NCBI GenBank assembly: GCA_000004985.1
Contig: GG738905.1
Direction: 5' to 3' (one strand)
Origin: Naegleria gruberi
Taxonomy: Eukaryota
Length of the DNA stretch: 64,000 bases
This document shows, piece by piece, positions 3,050 through 55,496 of the stretch (position 1 is the first letter of the stretch; each line of letters starts with the position of its first letter). Made by a program: the position numbers and the translations under genes. The notes beneath the pieces were generated by a model. The model was not told the origin of the DNA, ran no database searches, and was given only the letters and a program-made list of their open reading frames with translations.

Positions 3050-3099
3050 NNNNNNNNNNNNNNNNNNNNNNNNNNNNNNNNNNNNNNNNNNNNNNNNNN
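3050..3099. other. assembly gap (50 N)
   Basis: Run of n characters read directly from the sequence. Confidence 0.98.
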
Positions 3100-5189: not shown

Positions 5190-5239
5190 NNNNNNNNNNN
5201 NNNNNNNNNNNNNNNNNNNNNNNNNNNNNNNNNNNNNNN
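5190..5239. other. assembly gap (50 N)
   Basis: Run of n characters. Genes on both strands run into it. Confidence 0.98.
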
Positions 5240-7772: not shown

Positions 7773-10700
7773 CTAATGGAGAGAAATGATAGCTTGTTTT
7801 TCCACATGTTGAGCACTTGAAGACATTCTCAAATTATCTAAACTCATTCTCAATGCAGAATCTCCTCCTCTAAAAACCTCCAAAGTTCCCTCCCTTAAAT
7901 CATCTTCCTTATTTGGTTCGTGAATGTATGTTTTCATTTGACCTTTTCCTTTCACTTCGACATATCGTTCTTGGAATTCGTGTTTATCTTTGAGTCGTTG
8001 ATAGCATGTTTCGGTTACTTGAATGAATCCTGCAGGGCATGTACTTTCCATTCTTGAAGCAGTCTTTGATAATGTTATTTAAATTGTAAAGTGTGAAAAA
8101 TAAACTTACATTCACAGCATCAGACCAGACATCGTAGGCATATTTCAATACTCCACAAACTCCTGCAACTATTGGTCCAGAGTTAATGCCAACTCTTATT
8201 CCAATATTCAATCCATGATCCTCACAAAACAATTGAACTACTTCTGACAACTTGACAGCAAATGTGAAAGTTCTTTCCACATGATGAGCTTCATTCATAC
8301 CATCAGGTTTCAATCCAGCAGTACAGAAATACTTGGATCCAATTGTCTTTATCTTTTCCAAATTGAAATTGATGGTCAAGTCATCAAATTCATGAATAAT
8401 TTCATTCAAAGTTTGAACCAAATCAAAAGCAGATAAATTCAAATCCAATAATCCAACAATATCACTAAACAAAATGGTTACATCATCGAACTTGTCAGCA
8501 ATCAGAGTTTCTCCTGCAATCAGACGTTGAGCTACACTCTCTGGCATGATATTCATCAAGAGAGATTCGCTTTTTTTCTTTTCCTCAGCTAGTTCCTTAA
8601 CTTGTACTTTGTGTTCTGAAATATCACGCATGAAACATGAAATGATGTTTCGTCCTTCTAGTGCCGAAACTGAAATTCTCAATTCAACTGGGAATGATGA
8701 AGAATTCTTTCTTAAACCATTTAGTTCAAGAGTTTCAGAATAGCTTGTGGCAGAAACTCCCATTTTGGAAATGACTGGTTCTAGATTGGCAGCTGATTCC
8801 TTGTCAAATAATTTGTGGAGTGGAAATCCAATAATTTGATCTCCTCTGAATCCAAATAACTTTTCAGAAGCATTGTTGAAAATGTCAATTGTGCCACTTG
8901 ATGAGCAAATGACAGCACTCGTTAAGGCAGCTTCTAGAATGGCTCTTTCTTTTGTCGTTTTGAATTTGTTTTTCGATCTGGACTTTCCATTAGATAAGAG
9001 ATGGAAGAAGATATAGTTTCGAATATCGTCATTGGTATCCAATATTTCCCATGGAATGTAATTGAACAATTTTCTGAGAACATAATTTTCATTCTCAATG
9101 GTAGAGGTATACGTGTAGGTAATCCATGTCAGAAATAGCAATAATGGACAACCTAGGACAGCTGACAGTATTGTCATCAATGGTTGTTCTTGGAAAAAGT
9201 TGTAATAACAGAGTTTGTTTAAGGTTTCCAAATTGGTGAGTAGTACTATGGAATGATCAAAGAGAAATTCTGCCAATTCATTGATTTGTTTCATTTCTAG
9301 AGAGATAGTTTCGTTTGAGATTAGTAATTGATTGAAATTCAAAATGCTAGTTCTGAACTGCCCTATTTGGGTATCCAAAGATTGACAATCAAAATGAGAA
9401 CAATTAGTTGGCAATGTCAATAATAAATTGTCGATATTCGGATTGAATCCACTCAAACTAAAGTAATCATCAATTTGAGAACCATATCTCAACATATTCC
9501 AGTTTCTGTCAAATAAACTCATATCTGCCAATAATCTGTCATGAAATTTAACTCTCTTCTCATAATCTGCAATTGAAGCTACTTGAAGAAGATCATATCT
9601 TAAACTCTGAGATATATGCATTGATTGTGCTGTAGATTCCAACTTGTAAAGTCCATGTTCCAATATTTTCAATTTTCTGAAAATATCAGCAACGATCAAA
9701 GACATGGTTGCTGTGGCCACAATGAAGGACAAACAAACAACAATTACCAAAAAACTATTGGATGAGATACTATCCTTTGTGGAGTCTACATTCGTACCAT
9801 CCTTATCAATCAATCTCTCCATTCCAATAATGACCTTCTTGGATTCGTCTTTTGGAATTTTCTTAAACAAGTTTAGGATTTGTTTTCTCTGGTGAAGGAA
9901 TTTAAAACTACAAAAACCATTGAAAATCAAATATAGAAAGAAAATTAATCCAATAAATGATGATAAGGCAATGTAAGCATATGAATAGTTCCTTAATTCG
10001 CCTTGTTGGAATTGAAGAGTTTTTTGGAAGAAATCTAACATTCCATCTGAGAATGCTACTCGATTCATTTCAATGAAATTCAATAATTCTTGACTGATCT
10101 TCAAGTTGGATGTGTTTGTGGAAATAATTGTTTCAGATAGAACTCGTTTCGTCTTTTTCACAAACCATGAAGTTGAGGAATTTTTGTAAACTTGATTATC
10201 AAGAAGGAGAGTCTTGTCTTGTTTAGTATACAATAAGGAAACCAATTCATTGAATGAGAAGGAATCGAATAGAGTTTCGAACGAGTCAATCTTTGCAAGG
10301 TCGTTTTCCAGAACGTTCTGAAATGATTTTCTATACTCTAAAGATGAGCTATAATTCAAAGTTGACATTGCTCCAATATTTCCATTCACATTCGAAACTC
10401 CACAAAGTGTAGAAGTCGGAATTGAACTCAACATGGCAGATTTCAACAAAATATCGAATACACTATCATTCTGTGTAAATGAAAGTCCAACAATTAACAA
10501 AATTGCAATCAACACAATCGAAACCAAACCAGAGCTCACAATAAAATAAAACGTCGTTCTATTCTCATCCTTCTTATGAAGTGCCGAGCTGAAAACTTCT
10601 TGTTGCTTATCAGCTTGATCCATCAACTCTTCTGGTTGTTGTTCACTTACAGAGATGGAATCAAAGGCCTCATCATTGACATTCTCACTGAACATGTCGA

Positions 10701-13739: not shown

Positions 13740-14246
13740 TTAGATTGAATCAGAATCAATAGTATTATCGACATCATTGGATTCTTCATTCACTTGCTCA
13801 ACAAATTGAGACATGAGTAATTTCATACAACGACCCTTATCTTCCAATGAAAGTTTCTTGAATTGTTTCAAGATTTGCTTGACTGAATCTTGTGTACTTT
13901 CTGATGATTCCTTCTTCTCCTTCTTTTCCTTTTTTACTATAGTTGGCAGTGGAGATCCACTTAGTAAACAGTGAAGTGCCTTTAGCTTTTCCTTCTTGTG
14001 ATAATCTTGAACCTTCTCTTTGAAATCACTGTATTCTCCAATCTCCTTTCCATTCAAGCTGAATTTAATTCTATCAGCAACTTGGCCACTTGTTTTATAA
14101 TCTGTAACTTCATTGCAAAATTCTGTAATACTGTCCAGTGAATTATTTGCATAGTGAATATGACCATCGGAGGACAATACTGCCTTGTGATCAACTTTTG
14201 TGTAGGTGAGGCTTAACTGAATAACAGTAGGAGTGGATGATGACAT
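13740..14246 (-). CDS. hypothetical protein (168 aa), K/E-rich
   Basis: Real ATG. Single ORF with no recognised domain. Confidence 0.35.
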   Translation of the reverse strand: MSSSTPTVIQLSLTYTKVDHKAVLSSDGHIHYANNSLDSITEFCNEVTDYKTSGQVADRIKFSLNGKEIGEYSDFKEKVQDYHKKEKLKALHCLLSGSPLPTIVKKEKKEKKESSESTQDSVKQILKQFKKLSLEDKGRCMKLLMSQFVEQVNEESNDVDNTIDSDSI

Positions 14247-14397: not shown

Positions 14398-15547
14398 TTA
14401 TTTCTCCCAACCATATCTTTGAGCAACTCTGAAGAAAGCTTCCTTAGCTTCGTGTTCAGAGTATGGGGAGGTGTTTGAGAAATCCAATTGAGCTTCACCT
14501 GCAACCATTTCAGATCTGATTTGAACAAAGATTGATTCAAGAGAACAGACTGAACTCCAACCAGAGCTAGTCAACAATTCCATACAAATGGAACCACCAA
14601 TAGTGACGTGACCAGTACGGAAGGCAAATCTTGGCTTGAGAACTCTGATGAATGGTGGCTTGAACGGGAATTCAAGAGGGAAGGTCAAATCCAATGTAAT
14701 GTAACTGGTTGTGTTAATCAATTTGAAATAAAGAGATACTTACTCGATACCATTCTTCTTCTTGTATTCTTGCAAATCCTTGGCAATTTTACCATCTTCC
14801 TTGATATCAAAATTGAAGAATCTGATTTCCCAATGGAAAAGATCATCATTGACAGGATTGGCACTAATACCAAACTTTTCAGTGTTAGCTTGTTTAATCT
14901 TCATATATTCCTTCATAATGCAATTAACACAACCTTCTGAGGCACCAGTTGGTTTTTTGAATTTCTTCTTCATTTCTTCAAATTCTGGATCATATCCTCC
15001 ACTTGATTGATGAGTAACTGGTTGGATTGGATCATCATCCATATCATCACCAATATCAATTTCAACTTCCTCTGGTTCTTCGTCACCACCATCTTCATCA
15101 CCCAACAAGGCAGATTCAACTTCCTTGTAGAGAGCAGTAGCCTTTTGTAAAATATCAGTGAGAGATCTCTTTCCACTTCCACAATAATCACTCAATGATT
15201 TGACAAATTTAACATCTCCAACTTCTTCCAAAAGATAGTATTGACTGGTAACTTTCTATCATGATCAAGAATTAAATTATAATAATTGATGTATTTGATT
15301 GATAATTGATGTTGATCAATTTAATAACAAATAGTACATAAACTCTCCATCATCATTCAAATACTAAATTACTTACGAATGAATCTCCATTCTTTGTTAC
15401 GGAAAAGTATGGATTATCTTCAGCATCTACTTCGCTATCTACAATGACAATAATCTTCTCATCAGTACTATTACTCTTCAAAGTCCAAGAGAAGGAATTT
15501 TCCTTTGGGTTGTTGATGAACTTTTCTGCTTCAGCCTTTAAACTCAT
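14398..15547 (-). CDS. UBE2Q-family ubiquitin-conjugating enzyme E2 (3 exons) with long N-terminal extension
   Basis: Exons are ~15547..15377, ~15255..14744 and ~14704..14398. Donor ttc|gtaagt and acceptor gatag|aaagtt (phase 0). Second intron is 39 nt, gtaagtatc...aaccag, phase 2. The C-terminus ICMELLTSSGWSSVCSLESIFVQI..YGWEK closely matches the UBE2Q UBC core with the catalytic Cys. An acidic D/E insert sits in exon 2. Confidence 0.65.
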
Positions 15548-39715: not shown

Positions 39716-40471
39716 ATGTGTTGGTCTCTCAGAGCTTCCTTGTTCTTTTCCATCCTAGGAGGATTGATGACTTTGGATCAGATTCGAAGAACACTTGCTA
39801 TTCGAAAGGAGTGGAGAGCACGGAGTATATCTCAAGTATTAATGTACCTGTCGTATACCTTGATGGAATTCCTACAATTTCTACAGTATTGGTTTGGAAT
39901 TGAAGGAACGTGTGGCACCACTTCAAATATTTTCCTGTCAATTGTGGCTCACTTTCTAATTTGGACTCAACCACTGGCACACAATTATTGGTGTTTAAGG
40001 AATACAGCGAAGGGAAGAAGTACTTTCAGATATGCTTTGTTTTGCTCCTTCTCCACCCTAATTCTGGCAAGTATCAGTTTGGCAATGGGTTATTTTCAAG
40101 TTGGTGGATTTGGTGTTGGAATTGAAAATGACAATCTGGAAGGTGTTCCAGGAAATGTTTTGGGAATTGAAATTCAAAATGTGAATACCAAATTGTGTTC
40201 AATGCAAGGACCTAATCATTTATATTGGATGTTTCCCTATCATCCAATATGGGGACATGGCATTTCGTGGTTTACTTGGTTGATGGTTGCTGCATTTCCT
40301 CATTTCTTTAGATATTCAGTTAAGGATAATGATTTCTTTGGAAAGAGTTGGGTGATGGGAAGTGTTGTCGTTGGTGGATGGTTAGTTGCCTTGGCAGTCA
40401 CTTTGACAATTGGCAATTTCCATGAGACACCTTCTTATTGGTGCCTTATTTCAGTTCCATGTTTGGTGTAG
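39716..40471 (+). CDS. hypothetical polytopic membrane protein (251 aa, ~6 TM, W/C-rich)
   Basis: Real ATG. Multiple hydrophobic helices. It ends ~70 nt upstream of the retroelement repeat. Confidence 0.4.
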   Translation: MCWSLRASLFFSILGGLMTLDQIRRTLAIRKEWRARSISQVLMYLSYTLMEFLQFLQYWFGIEGTCGTTSNIFLSIVAHFLIWTQPLAHNYWCLRNTAKGRSTFRYALFCSFSTLILASISLAMGYFQVGGFGVGIENDNLEGVPGNVLGIEIQNVNTKLCSMQGPNHLYWMFPYHPIWGHGISWFTWLMVAAFPHFFRYSVKDNDFFGKSWVMGSVVVGGWLVALAVTLTIGNFHETPSYWCLISVPCLV

Positions 40472-40539: not shown

Positions 40540-40795
40540 AAAGTCTTCATCTTCTGAATATGATTCAAAGAAAGTTGCCTAATTTTTGAGGGATGAGAAT
40601 TGATGGATTGAAAGCCTCCATCTCATTGAGAATGAGCATTGACAATAATAGTGGAATCATTCAATGTCGATTTGAAACTATTTCAAATAAATTTCGAGTT
40701 GGAATCTGCTACTTTTTTTAAGTGTTTGGTGATAAACGTTGGGTCAATTTGTTACTTTCCATTTTGAGGAGTCATGCAGATTTCTTGAATGAAAG
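40540..40795 (+). repeat. terminal repeat A1 of the DIRS-like element
   Basis: About 90% identical to 44976-45236. Both start aaagtcttcatcttctgaatatgattcaaagaaagttgcctaattt and end gatttcttgaatgaaag. Confidence 0.85.
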
Positions 40796-40796
40796 T

Positions 40797-40915
40797 TGAA
40801 GTGAGTACCCCACTCACTAAGGTTTATTGTAAACTACACACACCAATAAATATGAAAAATTTTTGTCTGAAAAAATTTCAACACAGCAAGATGTTAAAAG
40901 ACAAGATTTACGCTC
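40797..40915 (+). repeat. repeat B1
   Basis: ttgaagtgagtaccccactcactaaggtttattgtaaactacacacaccaataaatatgaaaaatttttgtctgaaaaaatttcaacacagcaagatgttaaaagacaagatttacgctc is identical to 44800-44921. Confidence 0.9.
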
Positions 40916-42034
40916 TTATTAAAGAACACTCCAGTGATGTTATGGCTAGTATGCCTCCAAACACCATCAAGATGGTATTGGATCTACTTGGCGAAAACCC
41001 TGAAGACAAAGAAAGATGGCTAGAAATTGTTGAAGACGCAGGTGGTGCGTTATTCAACAACTTCTCAACAAAAGCAGAGGCCCAGGAATACTTTACCAAA
41101 GGTATTAAGAAGTTAGCAAAGAGTGGTAAAGTTGCTTCCACTAGAAGTAAGACTACCTCTTTGCAAGAGGCAAGCACTCCAAGTAACATGAATAAGACTT
41201 CTTCTTCATCTCAAATGGCTACCCCAAAGGTTTCTAGCGTTAGTCAGGTTAGAGAGTTCGTCCAAAAGAGAAGGATTGAAGAAACAGACGACAAGGAGTG
41301 GAAGAGAAGAGGTGTTATTCTTGACCCAGCTGATTTCCTTGAAAAGCCAGCTACTTGGAATCTCCCAAGTAGACAACAATGGGAAGAGATGAACCGCCAA
41401 ATCAACATTTTAGTGGTCGGTAAACAGGTTGAAGAAAAGGTTAAGGAAACGTTTCCGCCATTGAGTACCAATAACCAAGCATTGAAAGCAGAGTACGACA
41501 CCTTGAAAGAGGTCGCAGGAAGCGTCTACGGTGCTGCATTGTTGAACAAGGATGAGTCAGTTGCAGACAAGTTGGAGGGTGCCATTGAATATATCAAGGA
41601 GAAAGCGGTACACCTCAAGCTCGTTTCCTTCGACAAGCATCTTGCGGAGAAGGTTCGTATCATTCGTTCAGATAAGACCTGGAGAGAACAGGCTGACCTT
41701 ATTAAGGTCGCCTCCAAGTTGATGAAGGTAGAAAGTGAAGTGATTAAGAATGGAAACTTGCCAGTCATCAATAATATGACTAAAGCTGTTGAAAAGGCAA
41801 GAGATACCTATCCTGTAGCTTCCCACTGTTTCAAATGCGGAGAAGTTGGACACTTGGCAAAGAATTGCAATAAATCCACTTCCAAATACGTCTCGGTAAG
41901 TACTATTTTTCGATCCTCCAGATGCGGCAGAGATACGGGAGAGGAAACAAGCTGTTCACTCCATTTCGAATGCTTGGAAGGAGTGGAAGAGAAGAGGAGC
42001 GAAACCTTCGATAATAAGGCTCCTGAAAGAGGGT

Positions 42035-43852
42035 GTGAAAGTGCTTCCTTCAACAGGGTTCAAAAGATCAGTGGAGACAGTAAATTCAGCCAAGTTCTCA
42101 ATAAGGGAACTACAGTGGTTGGAAAGGGAGATAAATTTGCTAAAGAAGATTGGTGCATTAGAAGCTTGTCAGAATGCGGAAGTAGTGGCCAAGTTCAGAT
42201 TGGTACCAAAGGGAGAACAGTACAGATTGATTGTAGACTTGAGACCCTTAAACAAATATTGCCTCATCCCCAAATTCAAGTACAACACATTGAAGAGATT
42301 CTTAGAGTTTATTCCAGAATCTGGAACCATGTTCCTATCATCATTCGATTTGAAGTCTGGGTACCACCAGCTAAAAGTCCACAAGGACTCAAGAAAATTT
42401 TTTGCTATCAACTATTTTGGACAATTATTACAGTTTACTGTGTTGCCCTTTGGCTGGAATGGATCACCATAGAACTTCACTTTGGTAATGAATCAAGCGG
42501 TAATTTTGATGGAATCACCACTCATGCGTCTTTCCAATTATTTGGACGATGTGCAAATAGTGAATGTAGTGGAAGAAACAATAGCCGTACAGAATGTAGA
42601 AATATGCAGGGAAGATGCAAACCAGCTTGGTTTAGTGTTAGAGAGAAGAAAGAGTGTAATGAAACCAATGACAGAATTAGTAGTGTTGGGGTCATGTGTG
42701 AATATTATAACGAAGACACTATCAATGACAGAGGCTACGATAGTGAAGATTACGAATATGATAAAATCAGTACTCACGCGGATTCATTTAGGCAAAACAG
42801 TGTCGGTAAGGAAGATGAGTTCGATAAGCGGGACAGTGATTGCTTATTTGGAATGTTTTATCCCAGCAAGGGTGATGCTTGCTCCCATATTCGCCTTAAT
42901 AGCAAAAACAGTAGTGAAGTACGGATGGAAAGCTTCGGTATTCGTAAGGGATGTCAGGGTCATTCACAACCTTCAATGGATTATTGCAAATATAAGGATG
43001 TGGAATGGAAAACACTTCCAGAGGCCATCATTGGTCTATTACTTCTGGACAGATGCATCAGATTGGGGTTGGGGAGCATATTTCGAGGAGAAGGACTTGA
43101 AGATAGGTGGTCAATGGTCGGAACAAGAAAGAAAACTTCATATCCATATAAGAGAAATGTTAGCGGTGTTAAGAGCTTTGATGGAATGGAAGCATTTGTT
43201 CGAAGAGAGAAAGATCATTATTTATGTGGACAATTGGATTATCTTACACAACATTTTAAAGGGATGGGCAAAAAGCCCACTTATGAGAAGGTTAATTATG
43301 AGCTTCTGGAGAATTATATTCAGCCACAATATAACTCTATTGTCTGTGGAATGGTTACCGTCGGAAGAGAATTATATGGCAGACGGGATCAGCAGGGGGA
43401 TAATGAACGATCCCACGGATTGGGAGATGACTATTCCAGCATTTCAAAGGATTCAGAAGGAACTTCTAGTGGAAATAGGATTCGACAGATTCGCTTCCCA
43501 CGTAAGCTTCAAAGTCAAGCCTTACATGGTAAGAGAAAGAAATTTCAGAGGAGAGAAAGCAGACGCCTTCTCTACATTATGGACAGAAGAGGTTGTAAAT
43601 TTGTGTTGCGTCCCATTCAACTTAATAGGAAGAGTATTGAAACATTGCGAAGAATCAAAAGCTATAATGGTGTTGATTCATCCAGTATGGAAGAGAAGGT
43701 TTTGGTGGCCAATTCTAGAAAAGTATCGTATAAGGAGTGTATCGATGAATGGAAAGGACTTCTTTACAAAGTCCAATACAGGTCACGTAGAACCTTGCAA
43801 GAAATCTTGGCTATTAGAGGCAAGTCTGATAGATTGTCGAACTCGGAACTAA
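42035..43852 (+). pseudogene. RT/RNase H ORF of the DIRS-like element, interrupted by one in-frame TAG (~42473)
   Basis: Both sub-ORFs are in the same frame. The stop falls between the LPFGWNGSP motif and the YLDD motif. Otherwise the frame is intact. Confidence 0.7.
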
Positions 43853-44772
43853 TTAGAATTGCCAAGGAGGTCATTAGCTCTCACAGATACAAAGAGAGCA
43901 CTGACAAGAACTACAGAAGATATTGGGTGCGCTTTATTAGATTTAACATTGAAAGAAAGGCTTGTTTTCCTCCTTCAGAAGATAATCTTATTGCTTTCCT
44001 GACGAACATGTTCCTTAAAACACCGTCAGGAAGCAACTGCAGTGCAGCATATGCTGCTATCATGGCATTTGCCAAGAAATTTAGTTTAGATCAGGGAATG
44101 CGAGGAGATAATATTCGAGAAGTTTTAAATGGAATGACTAATCTTTCAAGAGTGGCTAGTGAGAAGGAAAGAAATGCTTGGCAACTAGAATTTATTAGAA
44201 AGTGGGTGAGCATAGGTAGGAGAAGCGTGTCTGACAGAGAATTTGTATTATACACATCTATGATGATCATAGGTCTACGAACTATGTTGAGAGGAAGTGA
44301 ACTTGGTGAACTAAAGACCGAAGATGTTCAATTTCTTCGCTTGGAGAATGGTAAAATGGCAGTCAAATTGAAATGTAGAAGAGTTAAATCTAGTCAGGGT
44401 AGAATGGGTAGAATTATGTGTATAGAGAGTACAGGAAATGATTTGTGCCCAGTATCTTGGTTGAATAGGTGGATGGTGTATAGAGATCAAGGTGATTACT
44501 TATTTGGTAATAGTAAGGCTTTGACTACAATCGACATTTCGTGGATACTGAGATTTGTGGCGTCAGTTATTGGAGTAGATGGATGTTTCTCCTCTCATTC
44601 TTTAAGAATTGGAGGTGCTAATGAAGCAGCTCAAGCAGGTTTTTCTCTCGCTGCTATTCAAGCTTTAGGCAACTGGTCTTCAAATGCGGTTGACAAATAT
44701 TTCAGATCTGAGTTTTTCTATAGTAGAAACGTATCAAAAGAATTGGGTTTCTAGTAGGGGCTCATTGTTTTC

Positions 44773-44849
44773 GTATTTATTGGTGTGTAGTTGGATAAAT
44801 TGAAGTGAGTACCCCACTCACTAAGGTTTATTGTAAACTACACACACCA
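44773..44849 (+). promoter_or_regulatory. 19-bp perfect inverted repeat (tttattggtgtgtagtt(a) / aactacacacaccaataaa), candidate internal complementary region
   Basis: The left arm at ~44775-44793 lies just inside the internal region before B2. Its complement lies inside B2 (and inside B1 at ~40828-40846). A 19-bp stem with a ~31-nt loop. Confidence 0.6.
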
Positions 44850-44921
44850 ATAAATATGAAAAATTTTTGTCTGAAAAAATTTCAACACAGCAAGATGTTA
44901 AAAGACAAGATTTACGCTCCC
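44800..44921 (+). repeat. repeat B2
   Basis: Identical to B1. It is followed by cccacca and then the N-gap. Confidence 0.9.
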
Positions 44922-44925
44922 ACCA

Positions 44926-44975
44926 NNNNNNNNNNNNNNNNNNNNNNNNNNNNNNNNNNNNNNNNNNNNNNNNNN
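44926..44975. other. assembly gap (50 N) between B2 and A2
   Basis: Run of n characters. Confidence 0.98.
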
Positions 44976-45236
44976 AAAGTCTTCATCTTCTGAATATGAT
45001 TCAAAGAAAGTTGCCTAATTTATGAGAATGGATGAGAATGGATGGATTGAAAGCATTTCATCTCATTGAGAATGAGTATTGACAATAATAGTAGAATCAT
45101 TCAATGTCGATTTGAAACTATTTCAAATAAATTTCGTTATTGCAATCTGCCACATTTTTTAAGTGTTTGGTGACAAATGTTGGTCAGTTTGTTATTTTCC
45201 ATTTTTGAGGTGTCACGCCGATTTCTTGAATGAAAG
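44976..45236 (+). repeat. terminal repeat A2
   Basis: Matches A1 with a few substitutions and indels (e.g. ttatgagaatggatgagaatggatgg versus tttttgagggatgagaattgatgg). It starts exactly at the gap edge, so its true 5' extent is unknown. Confidence 0.85.
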
Positions 45237-47119
45237 ATTTCTCTTGTTGAACGTGATTTCCAGATATCAAGCTAAATGAAAATCCAAATGTTGTCGATAT
45301 TCGTTGAAATTGAAAATTCATGAAGGAAAGCAACATTTCCATACAATTACAATTTGTTTCTTATCACCACTCGAGATGATCTTGTTTCATGTGATCTTTC
45401 GAATGAACTTGTGAAAGATCCTAATTACAAAAGTGAAACTGTTCAATAAAAATTACGTTAAATGCAATGTTTTAAAGATGTTGATGAATATTTCATTTAC
45501 AGTCGTCCTCAAAAGGTAATATACTGTCGAGTTCACTCATTCCCAATTACGAAAACATTTCTAATAATTCATTCAACATCCAATAGAGAATCTTCAAACT
45601 ATGAAAACATGATCTCCACAATCTCCCCATTAAGTCGAATATTCCAAACCAATTAGTACTTTGAATTAAGGGCATTTAACCTATTTGGATGCTTATTTCC
45701 CCTTAATTGGACAATTGCACTACGGTACTTCCTCAACAGTCCATTGAGATTTTTTAGATAAAATACCCAAAATTCAAGGCACCTTGAAAATAGTTTAAAG
45801 GAAGCCATGCATGTGAGATGATGAAGAAGGCATGTTTGCATGCGAAAGTTATGATGAAATCTAGTCATGTACATGTTGGTGCACATGACAGTATGTGAGA
45901 AGATTACATGTCTACTCTTTGATGTTGTAAGGGCATGTCTGAATGAAAATCCACACATTGGATGGAGATGTATGTGTGATGATAAGAGAGATACTCATCT
46001 TGATTAGATCTTTTACTTCTGCAGAGTTGGAAATAATTAAGAACTGTTTGTCAATAGTACTTACCAAGTTTTTGTTTTCCTTCATGTAATCATGGTGATG
46101 TAAATTGACATCATGTTTGTCAAGAATGAACATGAATCAAGTGTTTAGCATGGAGTGGTTGTGCGTCACTACTCCATCAACATGTGAAATTATTTCACAC
46201 CAACAAGAACAAAAGGTAATTTAGCAACAAAACACATATATGGCAAAGCACACCCCCATTATCACCAAGCAAACTGTTCTTTCAAGATGTTCCATCACCT
46301 CACTTGAATCTCGGTTAGTGGTGCTACCATTGAAAGTTGTTGATTTAAATCTTGTCCACCAAAAGATGAGAGGAAGTAGTGCGCACCTCATTGTTGCCTG
46401 GTTGGTGATGTTGTTCTTGTTGTTGAATTGGTAATAACCAACTCAAACAAACAGCCTCAACAAGAGTGCATTTCATTGCTTTGCAATTTGCTTTCTTTTT
46501 TTCTAAAGTGTTGTTCATCATCATATCGCTTAATATTTATTTTAAGAGAGTAATCAGGTGGTGTGTGATTCTTGGACTAGTAGTGCGCAGAGTGATTATT
46601 AGTATTATTATTATTAATTATAATCAATTATTTATATCTTTAAAATCATCAACACATCAAATATTTAATAAGGGTTTGAGTTGTTTCCCGCCAAAAATAT
46701 AATTGACTCTTGAAAGGGGTAGGTACCTACCTGATCATTTATTTATAATATTATTTAATATTATAATATCTAAGATCTTGCTTCGAAACTCTATCAATTG
46801 ATTTCTTTTAAATTTTTAAGAACTGTAGAATCATAAGAATTACCAAATAGAACGGACCAAAGCAAAAGAGAGTAAAATCTGCGATATATCTCAAATCACA
46901 TCCAATTTAATCTTAAGAATCCGAGATTCTATTTTTACGCCAAGTCGCTACAAGTACGGAAGTAAAGAGCCATAGAGTGAAATTTTTTTGCTATTAGATT
47001 GTGGACTCCATTGTGTTTTAGTGGTCGAGTGACAGTTTCAAAGTTATAAGAAACTCTAAAAAATTGAACACATCTCTCACTTTGAGGTTCCATTACTGAG
47101 AGAATAGTTTCGAATAATT

Positions 47120-50826: not shown

Positions 50827-51376
50827 TTAGTCTTGAATGGGTTGATAGGCATGTCCTTGAGAATCATAATATTCAGGAGGAGGAGAATCTTCATATGCTG
50901 GAGGTTGTGTAGTGGTGCTCAATTGACCACTTCGTGTTTTCTCAGGAATTATTCCAAAATCTTCAGCTAACAACTCAATTGTGAGTGTTCCCTTTTGTGC
51001 ATTGTGCAAATTCAAAGTCAATTGTTGAGCTATTCCTTTTTCCAAACTGTCCAATGACACTGATGCCTTGCCAATCACATCATTCACCAATCGATCATAA
51101 TCAAAAACTTCAAAATAAATAGTTTCTATCTCAGGATTAAAATTTGAAGGTAAATCCATGTGGAAAGTGGCATTCCAATCTGGATTGCAATTCTTCTTGA
51201 TGACTTCTGTTCGTAATTGAATGGTACCGAGTTGAATTTTGACAAATGGATCTTTAAACAATTAATGGAATGTTAAACAAGATAATTTGATGAGAAATAA
51301 ACTTACCAGAAGTGCCTCCTCGATCCTTTGCATCTAAATCTCGGCAGTTAATAACTGTTAATTTGAGTTTTGGCAT
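50827..51376 (-). CDS. C2-domain protein, member 1 of tandem array (2 exons)
   Basis: Exon 1 is 51376..51307 (MPKLKLTVINCRDLDAKDRGGTSG, 70 nt, donor tctg|gtaagt). Exon 2 is 51251..50827 (tttaaag|ATCCATTTGTC, DPFVKIQLG...). C2 signatures VFDYDRL..DVIGKA and LAEDFG. Pro-rich tail. Confidence 0.75.
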
Positions 51377-51451
51377 TTTTTTGATTGATATGACGCTTGA
51401 CTTTTGTGAAAAAGGATACATGTCGGACTAATAAGGTTTATAGTTCAACAT

Positions 51452-52294
51452 TTATTGATTATATTGTGGTGGATAACTTGGTGGTGGTGGTTGAGAATAA
51501 CCAATTGGTGGATACCCTTGAAAATTTTGATTTGGATATTGAGATTGATCTGAATATTGAGGTGGTGGTGGTTGACATTGAGATTGATCTGAATATTGGG
51601 GAGGAGGAGGTTGTGAATTGAATGAGTTATCATTTTGAGGAGGAGGTTGATTAGGAATTGGGTATTGAGGAGGTGATACAGATGATTGATTATTCGAATA
51701 GTATTGAGGTGGAGGAGGAGATGAATTGCTGCTATCGTATTGTGGAGGTGGAGGAGTGGGAGGTTGTGTGTTAAAATTATTAATATTCGAATGATTATAA
51801 TTCAATTGAGTGGCACTTCTGTTGTGAACAGATTGTTGTGTTGGCAGAGTTGGTGGTTTAATTTCTGGAATTATTCCAAAATCCTCAGCTAGTAACTCAA
51901 TGGTGAGTGTTCCTTTGTGTGCATTGTGTAAATTCAATGTCATTTGTTGAGCTATTCCTTTTTCCAAGTTGTCCAATCGAGCAGATGTCTTTCCAATCAA
52001 ATCATTTGATGAAAATCTATCATAATCATAAACATCAAAGTAAATACTTTCAAATTCTGGATCAAATTTTGCTGGCAAATCCAAATTAAAAACAGCATTC
52101 CAATCTGGGTTACAATTCTTCTTGACAATTTCAGTTTTAACTTGAAGAGTGCCAATTTTAATTTTGACAAATGGGTCTTTAAAGAGTCATGATGATTTGA
52201 TATTATGTCAACAATTTAACCTACCTGAAGTGCCACCCATATCTTTGGCATCTAAATCCCGAGCATGAATAACTGTGAGTTTGAGTTTTGGCAT
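51452..52294 (-). CDS. C2-domain protein, member 2 (2 exons) with PPPPQY/SDQSQ repeat tail
   Basis: Exon 1 is 52294..52225 (MPKLKLTVIHARDLDAKDMGGTSG, donor cag|gtaggt). 48-nt intron. Exon 2 is 52176..51452 (DPFVKIKIGTLQVKTEIVKKNCNPDWN...). Confidence 0.75.
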
Positions 52295-52409
52295 TTTTTT
52301 AAAGTTGACTTGGTTTGTGATTGATGTTTAGATTCCATTATTGAAATTACAATAAATTCATTGATAAGCATTAAATTGCTAGTTTAAATTACAAATTTAT
52401 AGTACACAA

Positions 52410-53490
52410 TTATTGGAATGGTTGTGGAGGATATCCCATTTGAGGTGGGTAACCCATTTGAGGTGGGTAACCCATTTGAGGTTGTTGAGGGTAACCTTGC
52501 ATTGGCTGTTGTGGATAGCCTTGCATTGGTTGTTGAGGATAACCTTGCATTGGTGGTTGTTGTGGATAACCTTGTTGCATTTGAGGGTAACCTTGCATTG
52601 GTGGTTGTTGTGGATATTGTTGATAACCCATTTGAGGTTGTTGTTGGGGATAACCTTGCATTGGTTGTTGTTGAGGGTAGCCCATTGGTTGTTGAGGATA
52701 TCCATAACCTTGCACTCCCTGTGGTTGATAACCCATTGGTTGTTGTTGTTGTTGTTGTGGATAACCATAACCTTGAACTGGTGGACCTTGATTGAGTGGT
52801 TGTGATTGAGTAACTGATTGAGTTGGCATGGCTTGTCCAAAATCTTCAGCCAACAATTCCACAGTCAAAGTACCCAACTTGGAATATTGCAATTTGAGAT
52901 CGACACGTTGTGGTTGTCCCTTATATAAAGTTCCCAAAGCAACTGTTGCCTTACCAATAATATCATTTCCTCCAAAACGATCATAATCATAAACTTCAAA
53001 GACAGCACTTTCACTGGCTGGATTAACAGAAGGAGGCAAATCAAAGAACAAGGTTGTGTTCCATGTTGGATTGCAATTTTTGCTGATGTGATCAGTCTTT
53101 CTTTGAACGGAACCAATTGTTACTCTAACATATGGATCTAAATAGTATTAATTAATTAATATATAATGATGATGATAATGAATGATTATTAATATATATA
53201 TGAATAATATTTGTTAACCAATCACAAAATCATTGTTAATGTACAAAACAATATTAAATATATTAAAATCGATTGTACATTGTAGTTGAATAACACAAAT
53301 AATATAAGAAATATTTCATTGTTATAAGAAATTCATCATCATGGATGTAACATCACCAAAATTCATCATCATCATCACATGTAAAATTAAATCATCATCA
53401 AATTCGCATCATCAACCTACCAGAAGTACCACCAACATCCTTTCCTTCCAAATTTCTAGCAGAAATAACAGTAATCTTGAGTTTGCCCAT
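52410..53490 (-). CDS. C2-domain protein, member 3 (2 exons) with QGYPQQP repeat tail
   Basis: Exon 1 is 53490..53421 ([24 protein letters not shown], donor tctg|gtaggtt). ~283-nt AT-rich intron. Exon 2 is 53137..52410 ([27 protein letters not shown]...). Confidence 0.75.
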
Positions 53491-53708
53491 TCTTTGTGTG
53501 TCTATTTTTTGCTAAAGTTTCCATTCCGTGTTGCTTGTTTGAGAAACTCATCGCGTTTCATGTGTTTTATAAATAAGAATGGATCGCTCATGTTCATGTG
53601 TGTATTTTTACCGCCAAAAAAAACTACAATATGAACTTTGTTTTATTCCTTACCTCTGGGGTTGATGATGGGAATGTAAAATTATAATTTAATATAACAG
53701 TTAGTTTA

Positions 53709-54080
53709 TTAAGTTTGACTTGGATGAGGAGAACCTCTCAAGTGAGGAAGAATAGTATGATGTTGGGAATGATGAGGTTTGAAATGAGAAATAATTGGTC
53801 TGATTATATGATGAGAACCAAATACTTTGAATGGTGGTTGGACGGTATCACCCGATTGTTGTGGTGTAGGAATGGAAATTTGTGGCAATTGTTCTTGTTG
53901 GACGGTATCACCTGATTGTTGAGGGGTTGGAATGGAAACTTGTGGTAATTGTTCTTGTTGGACAGTATCGCCTGATTGTTGTGGAGTTGGAATGGAAATT
54001 TGTGGAAGTTGGCAATCAACTAAACAATTGGCAATAATGAAGCATGAAATGAATAGCAAGAGAATGAGAAATTTAGTCAT
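53709..54080 (-). CDS. small secreted protein with three tandem 20-aa repeats (QLPQxSIPTPQQSGDTVQQE) and His-rich C-terminus
   Basis: Signal peptide MTKFLILLLFISCFIIANC. Three near-perfect 60-nt DNA repeats at ~53835-54010. HH/HSQHH tail. Real ATG, single exon. Confidence 0.55.
   Translation of the reverse strand: MTKFLILLLFISCFIIANCLVDCQLPQISIPTPQQSGDTVQQEQLPQVSIPTPQQSGDTVQQEQLPQISIPTPQQSGDTVQPPFKVFGSHHIIRPIISHFKPHHSQHHTILPHLRGSPHPSQT
53835..54010. repeat. 3 x 60-bp tandem repeat (coding)
   Basis: ggtatcacc(c/t)gattgttg(t/a)gg(t/g)gt(a/t)ggaatggaaa(t/c)ttgtgg(c/t)aattgttcttgttggac is repeated with 2-4 substitutions per unit. Confidence 0.8.
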
Positions 54081-54383
54081 CTTTTTTGAAAATGTTACTA
54101 ATACCTTTTCATTCTTCCTGAATTTGAATCATTGTAATGCCAATGAACAATGTTAAATTGATATGTTTCGTTTAAGGATATTTACAGTTTAAAGATTTTT
54201 CCCAAGAGAGGATTTGGACACTTTGGTATTTTCAAGCAGATGGTAATGTTATATTTATATAGTAATTCATCTTTTGTGAAGTTAGAAATCCAACTGTTTG
54301 TGACCTCTGCGTGTTAGAAGAAGAAGGAGAACTATATAAGGAAGATAATGTATTATTTACACAATTTCAAGAAGAAATTCAAA

Positions 54384-55152
54384 TTATTGATATGGTGGAT
54401 ATCCTTGTTGAGGAGGATATTGTTGTGGTGGATATTGTTGTGGGTATCCTTGTTGTGGTGGAAAACCACCTTGTTGTGGGTATCCTTGTTCAGGAGGATA
54501 GCCATATCCTTGCATTGGAGGTTGTCCATAGTATGGTTGTTGTGGATATCCTTGTTGTGGTGGATACATTTGTTGTTGAGGGTAACCTTGTTGAGGGTAA
54601 CCTTGTTGAGGATATCCTTGTTGTTGTGGTGGAAAACCACCTTGTTGTGGATTAGTTGTGGTTTGAGTAGTAGTTGGTATGGCTTGTCCAAAATCTTCTG
54701 CCAACAATTCAACAGATAAGATTCCATTCCTTGAGTTGGCCAACCTTAAATCAACTTTTTGAGCGTGTCCTTTGTAAAGTGTTCCCAAAGCAATTGTTGC
54801 TCTTCCAATCAAGTCAGAAGATCCCAAACGATCATAATCAAAAACTTCAAAAGAAGCTGATTCTGTGGCTGGGTTGACACTTGGTGGCAAATCAAAGAAG
54901 AGAGAAGTATTCCAAGTTGGATTAGTAGTCTTGGTCAAGTGGTCAGTCTTGTGTTTAATTGTTCCAACAGAAACAACAACAAAAGGATCTATTCAGTGTT
55001 TAAAATATGATATTATTATTCAGTAGGATTATACAGATGTAAGTGTAATGATCAATGAAATTGTTTAAATAGTAACACCTACCTGATGTACCTCCAATAT
55101 CCTTTCCTTCTAAATCACGTGCAGAAATGATGGTTACTTTAAGTTTGCCCAT
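54384..55152 (-). CDS. C2-domain protein, member 4 (2 exons) with GYPQQ repeat tail
   Basis: Exon 1 is 55152..55083 ([24 protein letters not shown], donor catcag|gtaggtg). ~94-nt intron. Exon 2 is 54988..54384 ([27 protein letters not shown]...). Confidence 0.75.
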
Positions 55153-55496
55153 TGTTGATGATTGTTAAATTAATTGATGAACAGTGTTTGAGGTGTTTTT
55201 TTTGTTTTTAGAAATTATTGGTTTTGCAAAAGTTCCAATTTTAAATCTCAGAACGAATATTGGCAAGTTCAAAAAAGTTGCTCGCCCAATTAGATCGCCA
55301 TCAAATTAAACAATTATGGACTTTTGGGTAAATAACAAAAAATTGAAAGCAAGGTCAAGGGCATGCTTCATTGTAACAAAACTGTAGTCCTTGAGAATTA
55401 TTAATAATATAATTATTATTTTTATGTTAGAAATATTCAAAATTAAGGTATTTCCAAAAAAGTTAAGCACAATTATCAAACAAAAACAGAAAAAAA

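What the first reader, a model, noticed from the sequence alone, without database searches (positions are those of the whole stretch)
40540..45236. Near-intact DIRS-type tyrosine-recombinase retrotransposon with an A-B...B-A direct-repeat layout
The element encodes Gag with a CCHC knuckle, RT (YLDD), RNase H (TDAS) and a tyrosine recombinase with R/HxxR/Y. Those are the hallmarks of DIRS-order elements. The termini do not match the classic DIRS1 layout of inverted terminal repeats, nor the PAT/Ngaro split-direct-repeat order A1-internal-B1-A2-B2. Here a ~256-bp repeat A and a ~120-bp repeat B occur as A1-B1-[internal]-B2-[gap]-A2, all in direct orientation. B abuts the coding region on both sides like a short LTR. 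A is duplicated outside it with ~90% identity. This could be a new terminal-repeat architecture for a YR retroelement. It could instead be a tandem or circular-junction-derived arrangement, or a misassembly across the 50-N gap.
Basis: partly seen in the sequence, partly recalled or inferred. Interest (0 to 1): 0.8.

Follow-up and report, generated by a model that had tools for sequence, protein, structure and literature searches.

The report
Naegleria tyrosine-recombinase retrotransposon, 3' end unassembled
This is a genuine, nearly intact tyrosine-recombinase retrotransposon in Naegleria gruberi, but its 'new A-B...B-A repeat layout' is not real: B is the ordinary split direct repeat, the true 3' end lies in the assembly gap, and A is neighbouring host DNA that appears twice.

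Summary
A1/A2 are 90.5% identical over 262 columns and B1/B2 are 99.2% identical over 123 nt. Pfam finds CCHC, RT, RNase H and a tyrosine recombinase.

The window is Naegleria gruberi, where DIRS-like sequences were already reported. The closest named relatives are three gap-free, 99.8-99.9% identical copies in N. lovaniensis. Their layout is a split direct repeat, A1-ORFs-B1A2-(~500-nt tail)-B2, with no outer repeat.

- the 5' motifs are shared;
- the ORF start lies inside the repeat;
- a conserved hairpin sits at the internal junction;
- CCCACC follows A2 in both species.

So the tail and terminal B2 fall in the 50-N gap.

Three things argue that A is not part of the element:
- Its left limit is the gap edge, and its right limit is the insertion point.
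- The A pair is about ten times more diverged than the B pair (p = 0.0007), and far more than the almost intact ORFs allow.
- It has no counterpart at the N. lovaniensis copies.

A is host flank. It is either an allelic empty-site contig or an older local duplication, and I cannot tell which.

Verdict: an ordinary new member of the DIRS/PAT group. Interest is low.

The parts
39716..40471 (+). Host gene upstream of the insertion (251-aa ORF, DUF5765-like). Its stop codon lies 68 nt before A1.
   Evidence: ORF. Pfam DUF5765, E = 1.1e-07.
40540..40795 (+). This is host flank directly left of the insertion point. It is not part of the element.
   Evidence: 90.5% identical to A2. No match inside the element. 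Ends exactly where the element begins.
40793..40798 (+). Left junction core AAGTTG. The internal junction reads AAATTG, so this looks like a hybrid crossover core.
   Evidence: N. lovaniensis copies carry AAATTC-type cores at both ends and one copy at the internal junction.
40796..40915 (+). It holds the 5' UTR and the first 25 nt of the gag ORF (ATG at 40891).
   Evidence: Motif homology to N. lovaniensis A1/A2.
40789..44754 (+). Continuous 1321-codon frame. Gag is at the 5' end (likely start ATG 40891), a stretch overlapping pol is in the middle, and the tyrosine recombinase is at the 3' end.
   Evidence: Same plan in N. lovaniensis. 39% identity over the last 490 residues.
41824..41871 (+). 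CCHC zinc knuckle of Gag.
   Evidence: Pfam zf-CCHC, residues 312-327 of the frame starting at 40891.
41900..43852 (+). pol frame, shifted +1 relative to gag. RT includes YLDD. RNase H lies at about 43022-43237. A methyltransferase-like region lies at about 43415-43801.
   Evidence: Pfam RVT_1 and RT_RNaseH. Translation. The C-terminal region aligns to the Dam-domain region of P0002. 6 of 7 metagenomic relatives scanned carry Dam.
42470..42472 (+). In-frame TAG in RT, in the motif GWNGSP*NFT. It is a single-base change from the Tyr/Phe codon of relatives and inactivates this copy's pol unless it is read through.
   Evidence: Relatives read GWNGSPY and GWNGSPF.
43858..44700 (+). Tyrosine recombinase: N-terminal SAM-like domain plus the catalytic domain (R, HSLR, Y).
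   Evidence: Pfam Phage_int_SAM_4 and Phage_integrase. Translation.
44755..44799 (+). Internal 'B1' half of the split repeat, lying directly upstream of the second copy of B. Its extent is unknown because its terminal twin is not assembled.
   Evidence: Aligned to the N. lovaniensis B1|A2 junction. GTAGTTGGATAAA occurs only once in the window.
44768..44862 (+). Long imperfect hairpin across the internal junction. The sequence upstream of B2 is the inverse complement of part of B.
   Evidence: Fold of 44755-44875: dG -25.4 kcal/mol, z = -6.6. Same structure in N. lovaniensis, z = -6.5. 3 of 7 tip pairs are compensatory.
44797..44919 (+).
   Evidence: 99.2% identical to B1.
44920..44925 (+). CCACCA, the first bases of the element's 3' tail. 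They diverge from gag (TTATTA after B1).
   Evidence: N. lovaniensis A2 is followed by CCCACCCTCC.
44926..44975 (.). 50-N scaffold gap. It hides the rest of the tail and the terminal 'B2' repeat, about 0.5 kb by analogy with N. lovaniensis.
   Evidence: Tail of 502 nt plus 44-nt B2 in L006.
44976..45236 (+). It starts at the contig edge and ends at the position homologous to the insertion point. Unoccupied flank follows it.
   Evidence: No element sequence downstream.

Best explanation
**What it is.** One young copy of a DIRS-group (PAT-like) tyrosine-recombinase retrotransposon in Naegleria gruberi. It is inserted at 40795/40796, 0.3 kb downstream of a host gene.

**Layout.** The tail and the terminal repeat are not assembled. 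They fall in the 50-N gap.

**What A is.** It is host flank that appears twice because the contig to the right of the gap restarts upstream of the insertion point. There are two ways this could happen, and I cannot separate them:
- The right contig is the unoccupied allele of a hemizygous insertion (my slight preference).
- There is an older local duplication, and the first copy received the insertion.

**How it works (inferred from the DIRS/PAT/Ngaro models).**
1. RNA is copied to cDNA.
2. The internal junction, which repeats the two ends side by side and folds into a conserved hairpin, serves to restore and join the ends.
3. The recombinase exchanges the junction core (AAATTG here, AAATTC in N. 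lovaniensis) with a similar short target sequence. This leaves no target duplication beyond the core.
For: **Shown**
- The domain set is present.
- The window is N. gruberi.
- The nearest named relatives are N. lovaniensis proteins.
- The three N. lovaniensis loci hold 4.78-kb copies that are 99.8-99.9% identical. Their layout is A1 (180 nt) - ORFs - B1 (44 nt) overlapping A2 - 502-nt tail - B2 at the very end. The flanks of the three copies are unrelated to each other.
- The N. gruberi 5' repeat and internal junction align with the N. lovaniensis ones. Shared blocks include ACTNAGGTTTNTTGTAA and CAAAAAATTT, and the ATG lies inside the repeat in both.
- CCCACC follows the second copy in both species.
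- The junction hairpins have z = -6.6 and -6.5, with 3 compensatory pairs in the tip stem.
- The sequence expected at the 3' terminus occurs only once in the window, so the terminus is missing from the assembly.
- A2 starts at the first base after the gap.
- The A pair has 25 differing columns of 262. The B pair has 1 of 123. Fisher p = 0.0007.
- At the A-pair rate, the 3.86-kb coding span would hold roughly 270 substitutions and 75 indels pairwise, so about half of that on one lineage. It actually has no frameshift and one or two stop codons.
- A has no match inside the element.

**Inferred**
- The replication steps and the circular or joined intermediate come from the literature (PMC7192593, PMC3266345, PMC8547959).
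Against:
- The tail and terminal repeat are predicted by analogy with a relative whose pol is only about 35% identical.
- The A pair differs by 7% in substitutions, which would be very high for two alleles.
- The core at the putative empty site (AAGATT) matches the element core (AAATTG) at only 3 of 6 positions. The three N. lovaniensis targets match theirs at 5-6 of 6.
- The true size of the gap is unknown.
Confidence: 0.8

Rival explanations
1. A is derived from a mobile element. For example, it could be the leftover 3' end of an older copy, or an unrelated dispersed repeat, into or beside which the new copy integrated. DIRS-type elements often insert into their own kind.
For: - DIRS-1 prefers pre-existing DIRS-1 copies (PMC7192593).
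- Solo AB repeats exist for split-repeat elements (PMC8547959).
- A1 ends exactly at the element's 5' end.
- The age difference between the A and B pairs would fit an old remnant plus a young insertion.
Against: - A shares nothing with the element's internal junction or any internal sequence. It therefore cannot be the terminal repeat of this family.
- There are no other A copies in 64 kb.
- A1 starts no more than 68 nt after a host stop codon, where a 3' UTR is expected.
- No N. lovaniensis copy has such a neighbour.
Confidence: 0.08
2. B2 is the start of a second, head-to-tail copy of the element that collapsed in assembly. On this view the locus is a tandem dimer rather than a split direct repeat.
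For: - B2 repeats the 5' UTR and the first 25 nt of gag.
- Contig 1 ends inside it, as contigs often do in repeats.
- The junction is palindromic.
Against: - After position 44919 the sequence leaves gag: CCACCA instead of TTATTA.
- It does so with the same CCCACC motif that follows A2 in three gap-free N. lovaniensis copies. There A2 is followed by a tail, not by gag.
Confidence: 0.05
3. The A duplication was made by the insertion itself. It could be a very long target duplication, or homology-assisted (Campbell-type) integration of a circular cDNA that carried read-through host sequence.
For: The geometry fits. One A copy ends at the element's 5' end, and the other could start at its hidden 3' end and ends at the same homologous position.
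Against: - The A copies differ at 9.5% of columns, including 5 indels. The element is almost undamaged and B1/B2 differ at 1 of 123 positions.
- Three N. lovaniensis insertions show only a 6-nt core at each end.
- YR elements are described as making no target duplication (PMC3266345).
Confidence: 0.04
4. One reading: A-B...B-A is a real, new terminal-repeat architecture of a YR retroelement.
For: All four repeat copies are real and direct.
Against: - The closest related family has no outer repeat.
- A's limits are the gap edge and the insertion point.
- The A and B pairs have very different ages.
- Element sequence continues past B2 into the gap.
- The expected terminal repeat is absent from the right-hand contig.
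Confidence: 0.03

Closest known systems
Unnamed N. lovaniensis element (proteins annotated as hypothetical C9374_002847, C9374_004722, C9374_010711; loci L006-L008)
   Same: - Same gene plan: a long gag...YR frame with pol in an overlapping frame.
- pol is about 35% identical, and the last 490 residues of the long frame (YR plus the end of the overlap) are 39% identical.
- The 5' repeat and internal junction are homologous.
- The junction hairpin is conserved.
- CCCACC follows the second repeat copy in both.
   Different: - It is in a different species and has diverged too far for overall nucleotide alignment.
- Its 5' repeat is 180 nt, against 120 nt here.
- Its copies are intact and gap-free, whereas this copy has stop codons in pol and an unassembled 3' end.
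PAT-like (Pat1-type) elements of the DIRS group
   Same: - Gag with a zinc finger.
- RT-RH-MT-like pol.
- YR in the same orientation.
- Split direct repeats (PMC4157794).
- Here the internal repeats lie downstream of YR.
   Different: - In the Naegleria family a roughly 500-nt tail separates A2 from B2 (seen in N. lovaniensis, inferred here). The textbook form is B1A2B2 adjacent.
- There is a long ORF overlap, which is more often described for DIRS1-like elements.
- No phylogeny against Pat1 references was possible.
DIRS1-like elements
   Same: - Same domain set, including an MT-like region.
- Long overlap of the YR ORF with pol, with the catalytic YR domain in the non-overlapping 3' end (PMC3266345).
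- N. gruberi sequences were assigned to this group by TBLASTX in that paper.
- An internal region repeats or complements both ends.
   Different: - There are no inverted terminal repeats and no ICR complementary to the outermost ends.
- The repeats are direct.
- Only a partial inverse complement exists between the short B repeat and a subterminal part of the 5' repeat.
Ngaro elements
   Same: A1-[ORFs]-B1A2B2 order, with the internal repeats downstream of YR (PMC8547959, PMC4157794).
   Different: Ngaro lacks the MT domain and usually has no ORF overlap (PMC3266345). This element has both.

Membership tests
DIRS order (YR retrotransposons) | Reverse transcriptase plus RNase H | tested here: met
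   Pfam RVT_1 and RT_RNaseH. YLDD and TDAS are readable in the translation.
DIRS order (YR retrotransposons) | A tyrosine recombinase with R...HxxR...Y, in place of a DDE integrase | tested here: met
   Pfam Phage_integrase, E = 3.6e-09, plus the SAM-like N-domain. No rve or protease hit. GLRTMLRGSEL, HSLRIGG and DKYFR are readable.
DIRS order (YR retrotransposons) | No target-site duplication beyond a short shared core | tested here: inconclusive
   The right junction is not assembled here. In N. lovaniensis only a 6-nt AAATTC-type core sits at both ends.
PAT-like (DIRS group) | Split direct repeats A1...B1A2...B2 | tested here: inconclusive
The terminal B2 lies in the gap. The feature is fully met in the three N. 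lovaniensis relatives, with a 502-nt tail between A2 and B2.
PAT-like / DIRS1-like (DIRS group) | Methyltransferase-like domain after RNase H | tested here: inconclusive
   No direct Pfam hit. However, residues 315-443 of the 459-residue pol segment that starts after the TAG (42473-43849) align with the Dam-domain region of P0002. 6 of 7 metagenomic relatives scanned carry Pfam Dam there.
Pat1-type | Zinc finger in Gag | tested here: met
   zf-CCHC at 41824-41871.
DIRS1-like | Inverted terminal repeats, plus internal complementary regions matching the outermost ends | tested here: not met
   The repeats are direct. The inverted match involves a subterminal part of the 5' repeat, not its first bases.
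DIRS1-like | Long overlap of the YR ORF with pol | tested here: met
   The gag-YR frame has no stop from 40789 to 44751. The pol frame is open from 41900 to 43849 apart from one TAG.
Ngaro | No MT domain and no long ORF overlap | tested here: not met
   An MT-like region and a 2-kb overlap are both present.
LTR retrotransposon | Identical terminal LTRs that bound the element, DDE integrase, and a short TSD | tested here: not met
   There is no integrase or protease. Element sequence continues beyond B2. The A pair is 90% identical and has no defined ends.

The most novel reading that the evidence does not exclude
The Naegleria family may be the 'intermediate form' between split-direct-repeat (PAT/Ngaro) and inverted-repeat/ICR (DIRS1) termini. 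A survey of nematode YR elements noted that such a form is not observed (PMC4157794).

In this family the short terminal repeat is also the inverse complement of a subterminal part of the 5' repeat. The internal junction can therefore pair with the ends both as a direct copy and as a fold-back. The fold is conserved between N. gruberi and N. lovaniensis with compensatory changes. A tail of about 500 nt sits between A2 and B2.

Probability: 0.2. Interest if true: 0.5.

Novelty: new member of a known kind. Interest (0 to 1): 0.22.

Why it matters
The proposed new terminal architecture would have challenged the replication models for tyrosine-recombinase retroelements. It does not hold up.

What remains has modest value:
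- It is a clean, nearly intact reference copy for the DIRS-like elements that a 2011 survey could only list as degraded in N. gruberi.
- It links to an apparently active family in N. lovaniensis, where three copies are 99.8-99.9% identical.
- That family has clear ends, a 6-nt recombination core and a conserved junction hairpin, so it could be used to test the end-joining step experimentally.

Tried and rejected
**Searches that led nowhere**
- Exact-protein look-ups found nothing for the element ORF, two neighbouring host ORFs and the N. gruberi ABC1 protein. Other N. gruberi copies and other assemblies of this locus could therefore not be reached.
- A word-based homology search with the 1287-aa gag-YR frame found nothing.
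- The same kind of search with pol found only two metagenomic relatives. Their contigs are truncated and show no termini.
- The JGI metagenome scan gave two short contigs of a 28%-identical family, also without informative ends.
- Rfam found nothing in the window.
- Tandem Repeats Finder found nothing relevant.
- The Cell 2010 N. gruberi genome paper is not held, so assembly and heterozygosity details rest on nothing I can cite.
- MAFFT misaligned the two junction hairpins. I counted pairs only on the gap-free tip.

**Readings considered and rejected**
- *DIRS1-type ITR/ICR.* The inverted match is not to the outermost bases.
- *Tandem second copy.* The sequence leaves gag after B2.
- *Simple LTR.* Element sequence continues after B2.
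- *Low-quality contig ends as the cause of A1/A2 divergence or of CCACCA.* The differences are spread along the whole of A, with the first 47 nt identical. CCCACC is confirmed by N. lovaniensis.
- *A as the element's 3' tail.* It has no internal twin.

**Other checks**
- The other two 50-N gaps gave no clue to what a 50-N gap means in this assembly.


Full report
**1.

- A1 (40540-40795) and A2 (44976-45236) align over 262 columns at 90.5% identity.
- B1 (40793-40915) and B2 (44797-44919) are 99.2% identical, 4004 nt apart.
- All four copies are direct.
- Nothing else in the 64-kb window resembles A, B or the element's proteins.
- A 50-N run sits at 44926-44975, and the window has two more runs of exactly 50 N.
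- Pfam finds zf-CCHC, RVT_1, RT_RNaseH, Phage_integrase and its SAM-like N-domain.
- YLDD, TDAS and R...HSLR...Y are readable in the translations.
- One detail matters later. A2 begins at the very first base after the N run, so the left limit of 'A' is an assembly edge.

**2. Anatomy of the element**

- One frame runs without a stop from 40789 to 44751. It holds Gag at the 5' end and the recombinase at the 3' end.
- The RT-RNase H frame (41900-43849) lies inside it, shifted by +1, and has a single TAG at 42470.
- The third frame has 167 stops between 40540 and 45236, so the two-frame openness over 2 kb is not chance.
- The TAG replaces the Tyr/Phe of the GWNGSP(Y/F) motif of relatives.
- The pol frame also lacks the ATG that the N. 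lovaniensis pol has, and carries a TAA at 41897.
- The region after RNase H gives no Pfam hit. It does align with the Dam-type methyltransferase region of relative P0002. Six of seven metagenomic relatives scanned carry Pfam Dam there.
- Gag zinc finger, RT-RH-MT-like pol, YR and a long YR/pol overlap together place it in the DIRS1/PAT group, not in Ngaro (definitions in PMC3266345 and PMC4157794).

**3. Source and prior knowledge**

- A host ORF in the window is 100% identical to a Naegleria gruberi predicted protein.
- Piednoël et al. 2011 already listed seven DIRS1-like sequences in N. gruberi. They were too damaged for that study's phylogeny and were assigned by TBLASTX (PMC3266345).

**4. 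The decisive comparison**

A full HMMER scan with pol found 7569 relatives. The best named ones are three N. lovaniensis 'hypothetical proteins'. Their loci (L006-L008) have no N within or near the element; the only N run, in L008, is about 6.5 kb downstream of it. They hold three copies of one 4.78-kb element that are 99.8-99.9% identical. Homology between loci stops sharply at both ends.

Within each copy (L006 coordinates):
- A1 spans 9891-10070, with the ORF's ATG at 10001 inside it.
- The ORFs follow.
- B1 spans 13912-13955 and overlaps A2 (13949-14128) by a few bases.
- A 502-nt tail follows, rich in GGATGCC repeats.
- B2 spans 14631-14674 and ends the element.

This is a split direct repeat with a tail between A2 and B2. 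There is no outer repeat. Both ends carry a 6-nt core (AAATTC, with variants TAATTC, AAATT|t and AAACTC), which appears once at the internal junction. That is the pattern expected from recombinase exchange within a short core.

**5. Mapping N. gruberi onto this plan**

The two regions align with conserved blocks (ACTNAGGTTTNTTGTAA, CAAAAAATTT, the YR C-terminus and its stop). The start codon lies inside the repeat in both.
- After the second copy, N. lovaniensis continues CCCACCCTCC and N. gruberi continues CCCACCA, then the gap. The six odd bases before the gap are therefore the start of the tail, not sequencing noise. B2 is also not the start of a second tandem copy.
- The junction folds into a long hairpin in both species: dG -25.4 kcal/mol with z = -6.6, and dG -21.4 kcal/mol with z = -6.5.
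- In the 7-bp tip stem, three pairs differ on both sides and stay paired. With only two sequences this is suggestive, not proof.
- The sequence expected at the 3' terminus (a second ...GTAGTTGGATAAA) occurs only once in the window. The true 3' end is therefore unassembled.

**6. What A is**

- The A pair has 18 substitutions and 5 indel events. The B pair has one difference (Fisher p = 0.0007).
- At the A-pair rate, the 3.86-kb coding span would carry about 270 substitutions and 75 indels pairwise, so roughly half of that on one lineage. It actually has no frameshift and one or two stops.
- The A duplication is therefore much older than the insertion. It cannot be a terminal repeat or a target duplication made by this insertion.
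- A matches nothing inside the element.
- A1 begins no more than 68 nt after a host stop codon.
- Its two 'limits' are the gap edge and the insertion point.
- The natural reading is that the right-hand contig restarts upstream of the insertion point. It is either the unoccupied allele of a hemizygous insertion or the second unit of an older local duplication. In the second case the right-flank counterpart of A1 also lies in the gap.
- I cannot separate these two. The 7% substitution divergence is high for alleles. The core at the putative empty site (AAGATT) matches the element core (AAATTG) at only 3 of 6 positions.

**7. Mechanism**

*Shown:*
- the domains;
- the split repeat;
- the short core at both ends in N. 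lovaniensis;
- the conserved junction fold.

*Inferred from the literature:*
- The transcript lacks the extreme ends.
- cDNA ends are restored and joined using the internal junction. The DIRS-1 ICR has been shown to be essential, and the cDNA is mostly linear and single-stranded (PMC7192593).
- The recombinase then exchanges the junction core with a similar target sequence, without target duplication (PMC3266345).

**8. Verdict**

The element is real and is a new, reasonably well-preserved member of a known kind. The A-B...B-A architecture is not supported. The interesting residue lies outside the original claim: the Naegleria family combines split direct repeats with a fold-back complementarity between the short terminal repeat and the 5' repeat, and has a long tail between A2 and B2.

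Noticed in passing
window 40789-44754 and 41900-43852; L006 9950-13903 and 10977-13004; L001 1787-3211 and 2037-3716; L004 693-2660 and 776-2839: Two overlapping frames stay open together for about 2 kb. In the two Naegleria elements the gag...YR frame is one uninterrupted ORF of about 1320 codons, with pol embedded in another frame. The double openness persists in relatives whose pol is only 28-50% identical. Long YR/pol overlap is known for DIRS1-like elements, but I did not find a continuous gag-to-YR frame described.
   Followed up: partly
window 44768-44862; L006 13921-14008: A conserved long hairpin spans the internal B1|A2 junction (z about -6.5 in both species), with three compensatory pairs in the tip stem. 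The short terminal repeat is therefore also an inverted copy of a subterminal part of the 5' repeat.
   Followed up: partly
L006 14129-14630 (same in L007, L008): A 502-nt tail lies between A2 and B2 of the N. lovaniensis element. It contains roughly 71-105-nt repeats rich in GGATGCC. The textbook split direct repeat has A2 and B2 adjacent.
   Followed up: partly
L006 9891-9896 and 14668-14673; L007 10636-10641 and about 15413-15418; L008 9891-9896 and 14665-14670: A 6-nt core (AAATTC, with single-base variants at some ends) sits at both ends of each N. lovaniensis copy and once at the internal junction. It looks like the recombinase crossover region and a weak target preference.
   Followed up: partly
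L006, L007, L008 (N. lovaniensis GCA_003324165.2): Three copies of the element on different contigs are 99.8-99.9% identical with intact ORFs. This suggests a recently active family that is annotated only as hypothetical proteins.
   Followed up: partly
window 41816-41899 and 42470-42472: The N. gruberi pol frame has no ATG where the N. lovaniensis pol starts (MMRK...). It has a TAA at 41897 just before the conserved FFD...HSISN block, plus the TAG in RT. Either pol needs a +1 frameshift from gag, or this copy is dead.
   Followed up: partly
L008 5925-8459 and 14947-16501: Host sequence on both sides of one N. lovaniensis copy contains direct repeats of 85-95% identity. They do not abut the element (1.4 kb and 0.3 kb away). 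This is probably a local duplication and was not examined further.
   Followed up: no
window 50942-55156: A cluster of diverged direct repeats (66-89% identity) overlaps two about 210-aa ORFs on the minus strand, each with a partial C2 domain. It looks like a small tandem gene family.
   Followed up: partly
window 3050-3099, 5190-5239, 44926-44975: All three gaps in the window are exactly 50 N. The gap length is therefore probably a placeholder and says nothing about the amount of missing sequence.
   Followed up: partly
window 45237-47119: About 1.9 kb downstream of A2 has only one ORF of 100 aa or more (101 aa, minus strand, 45653-45958), in an otherwise gene-dense, intron-poor region. There is no Rfam hit and no similarity to the element.
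   Followed up: partly
L004 4078-4199: The metagenome contig ends in a perfect 61-nt palindrome. This is probably an assembly artefact.
   Followed up: no
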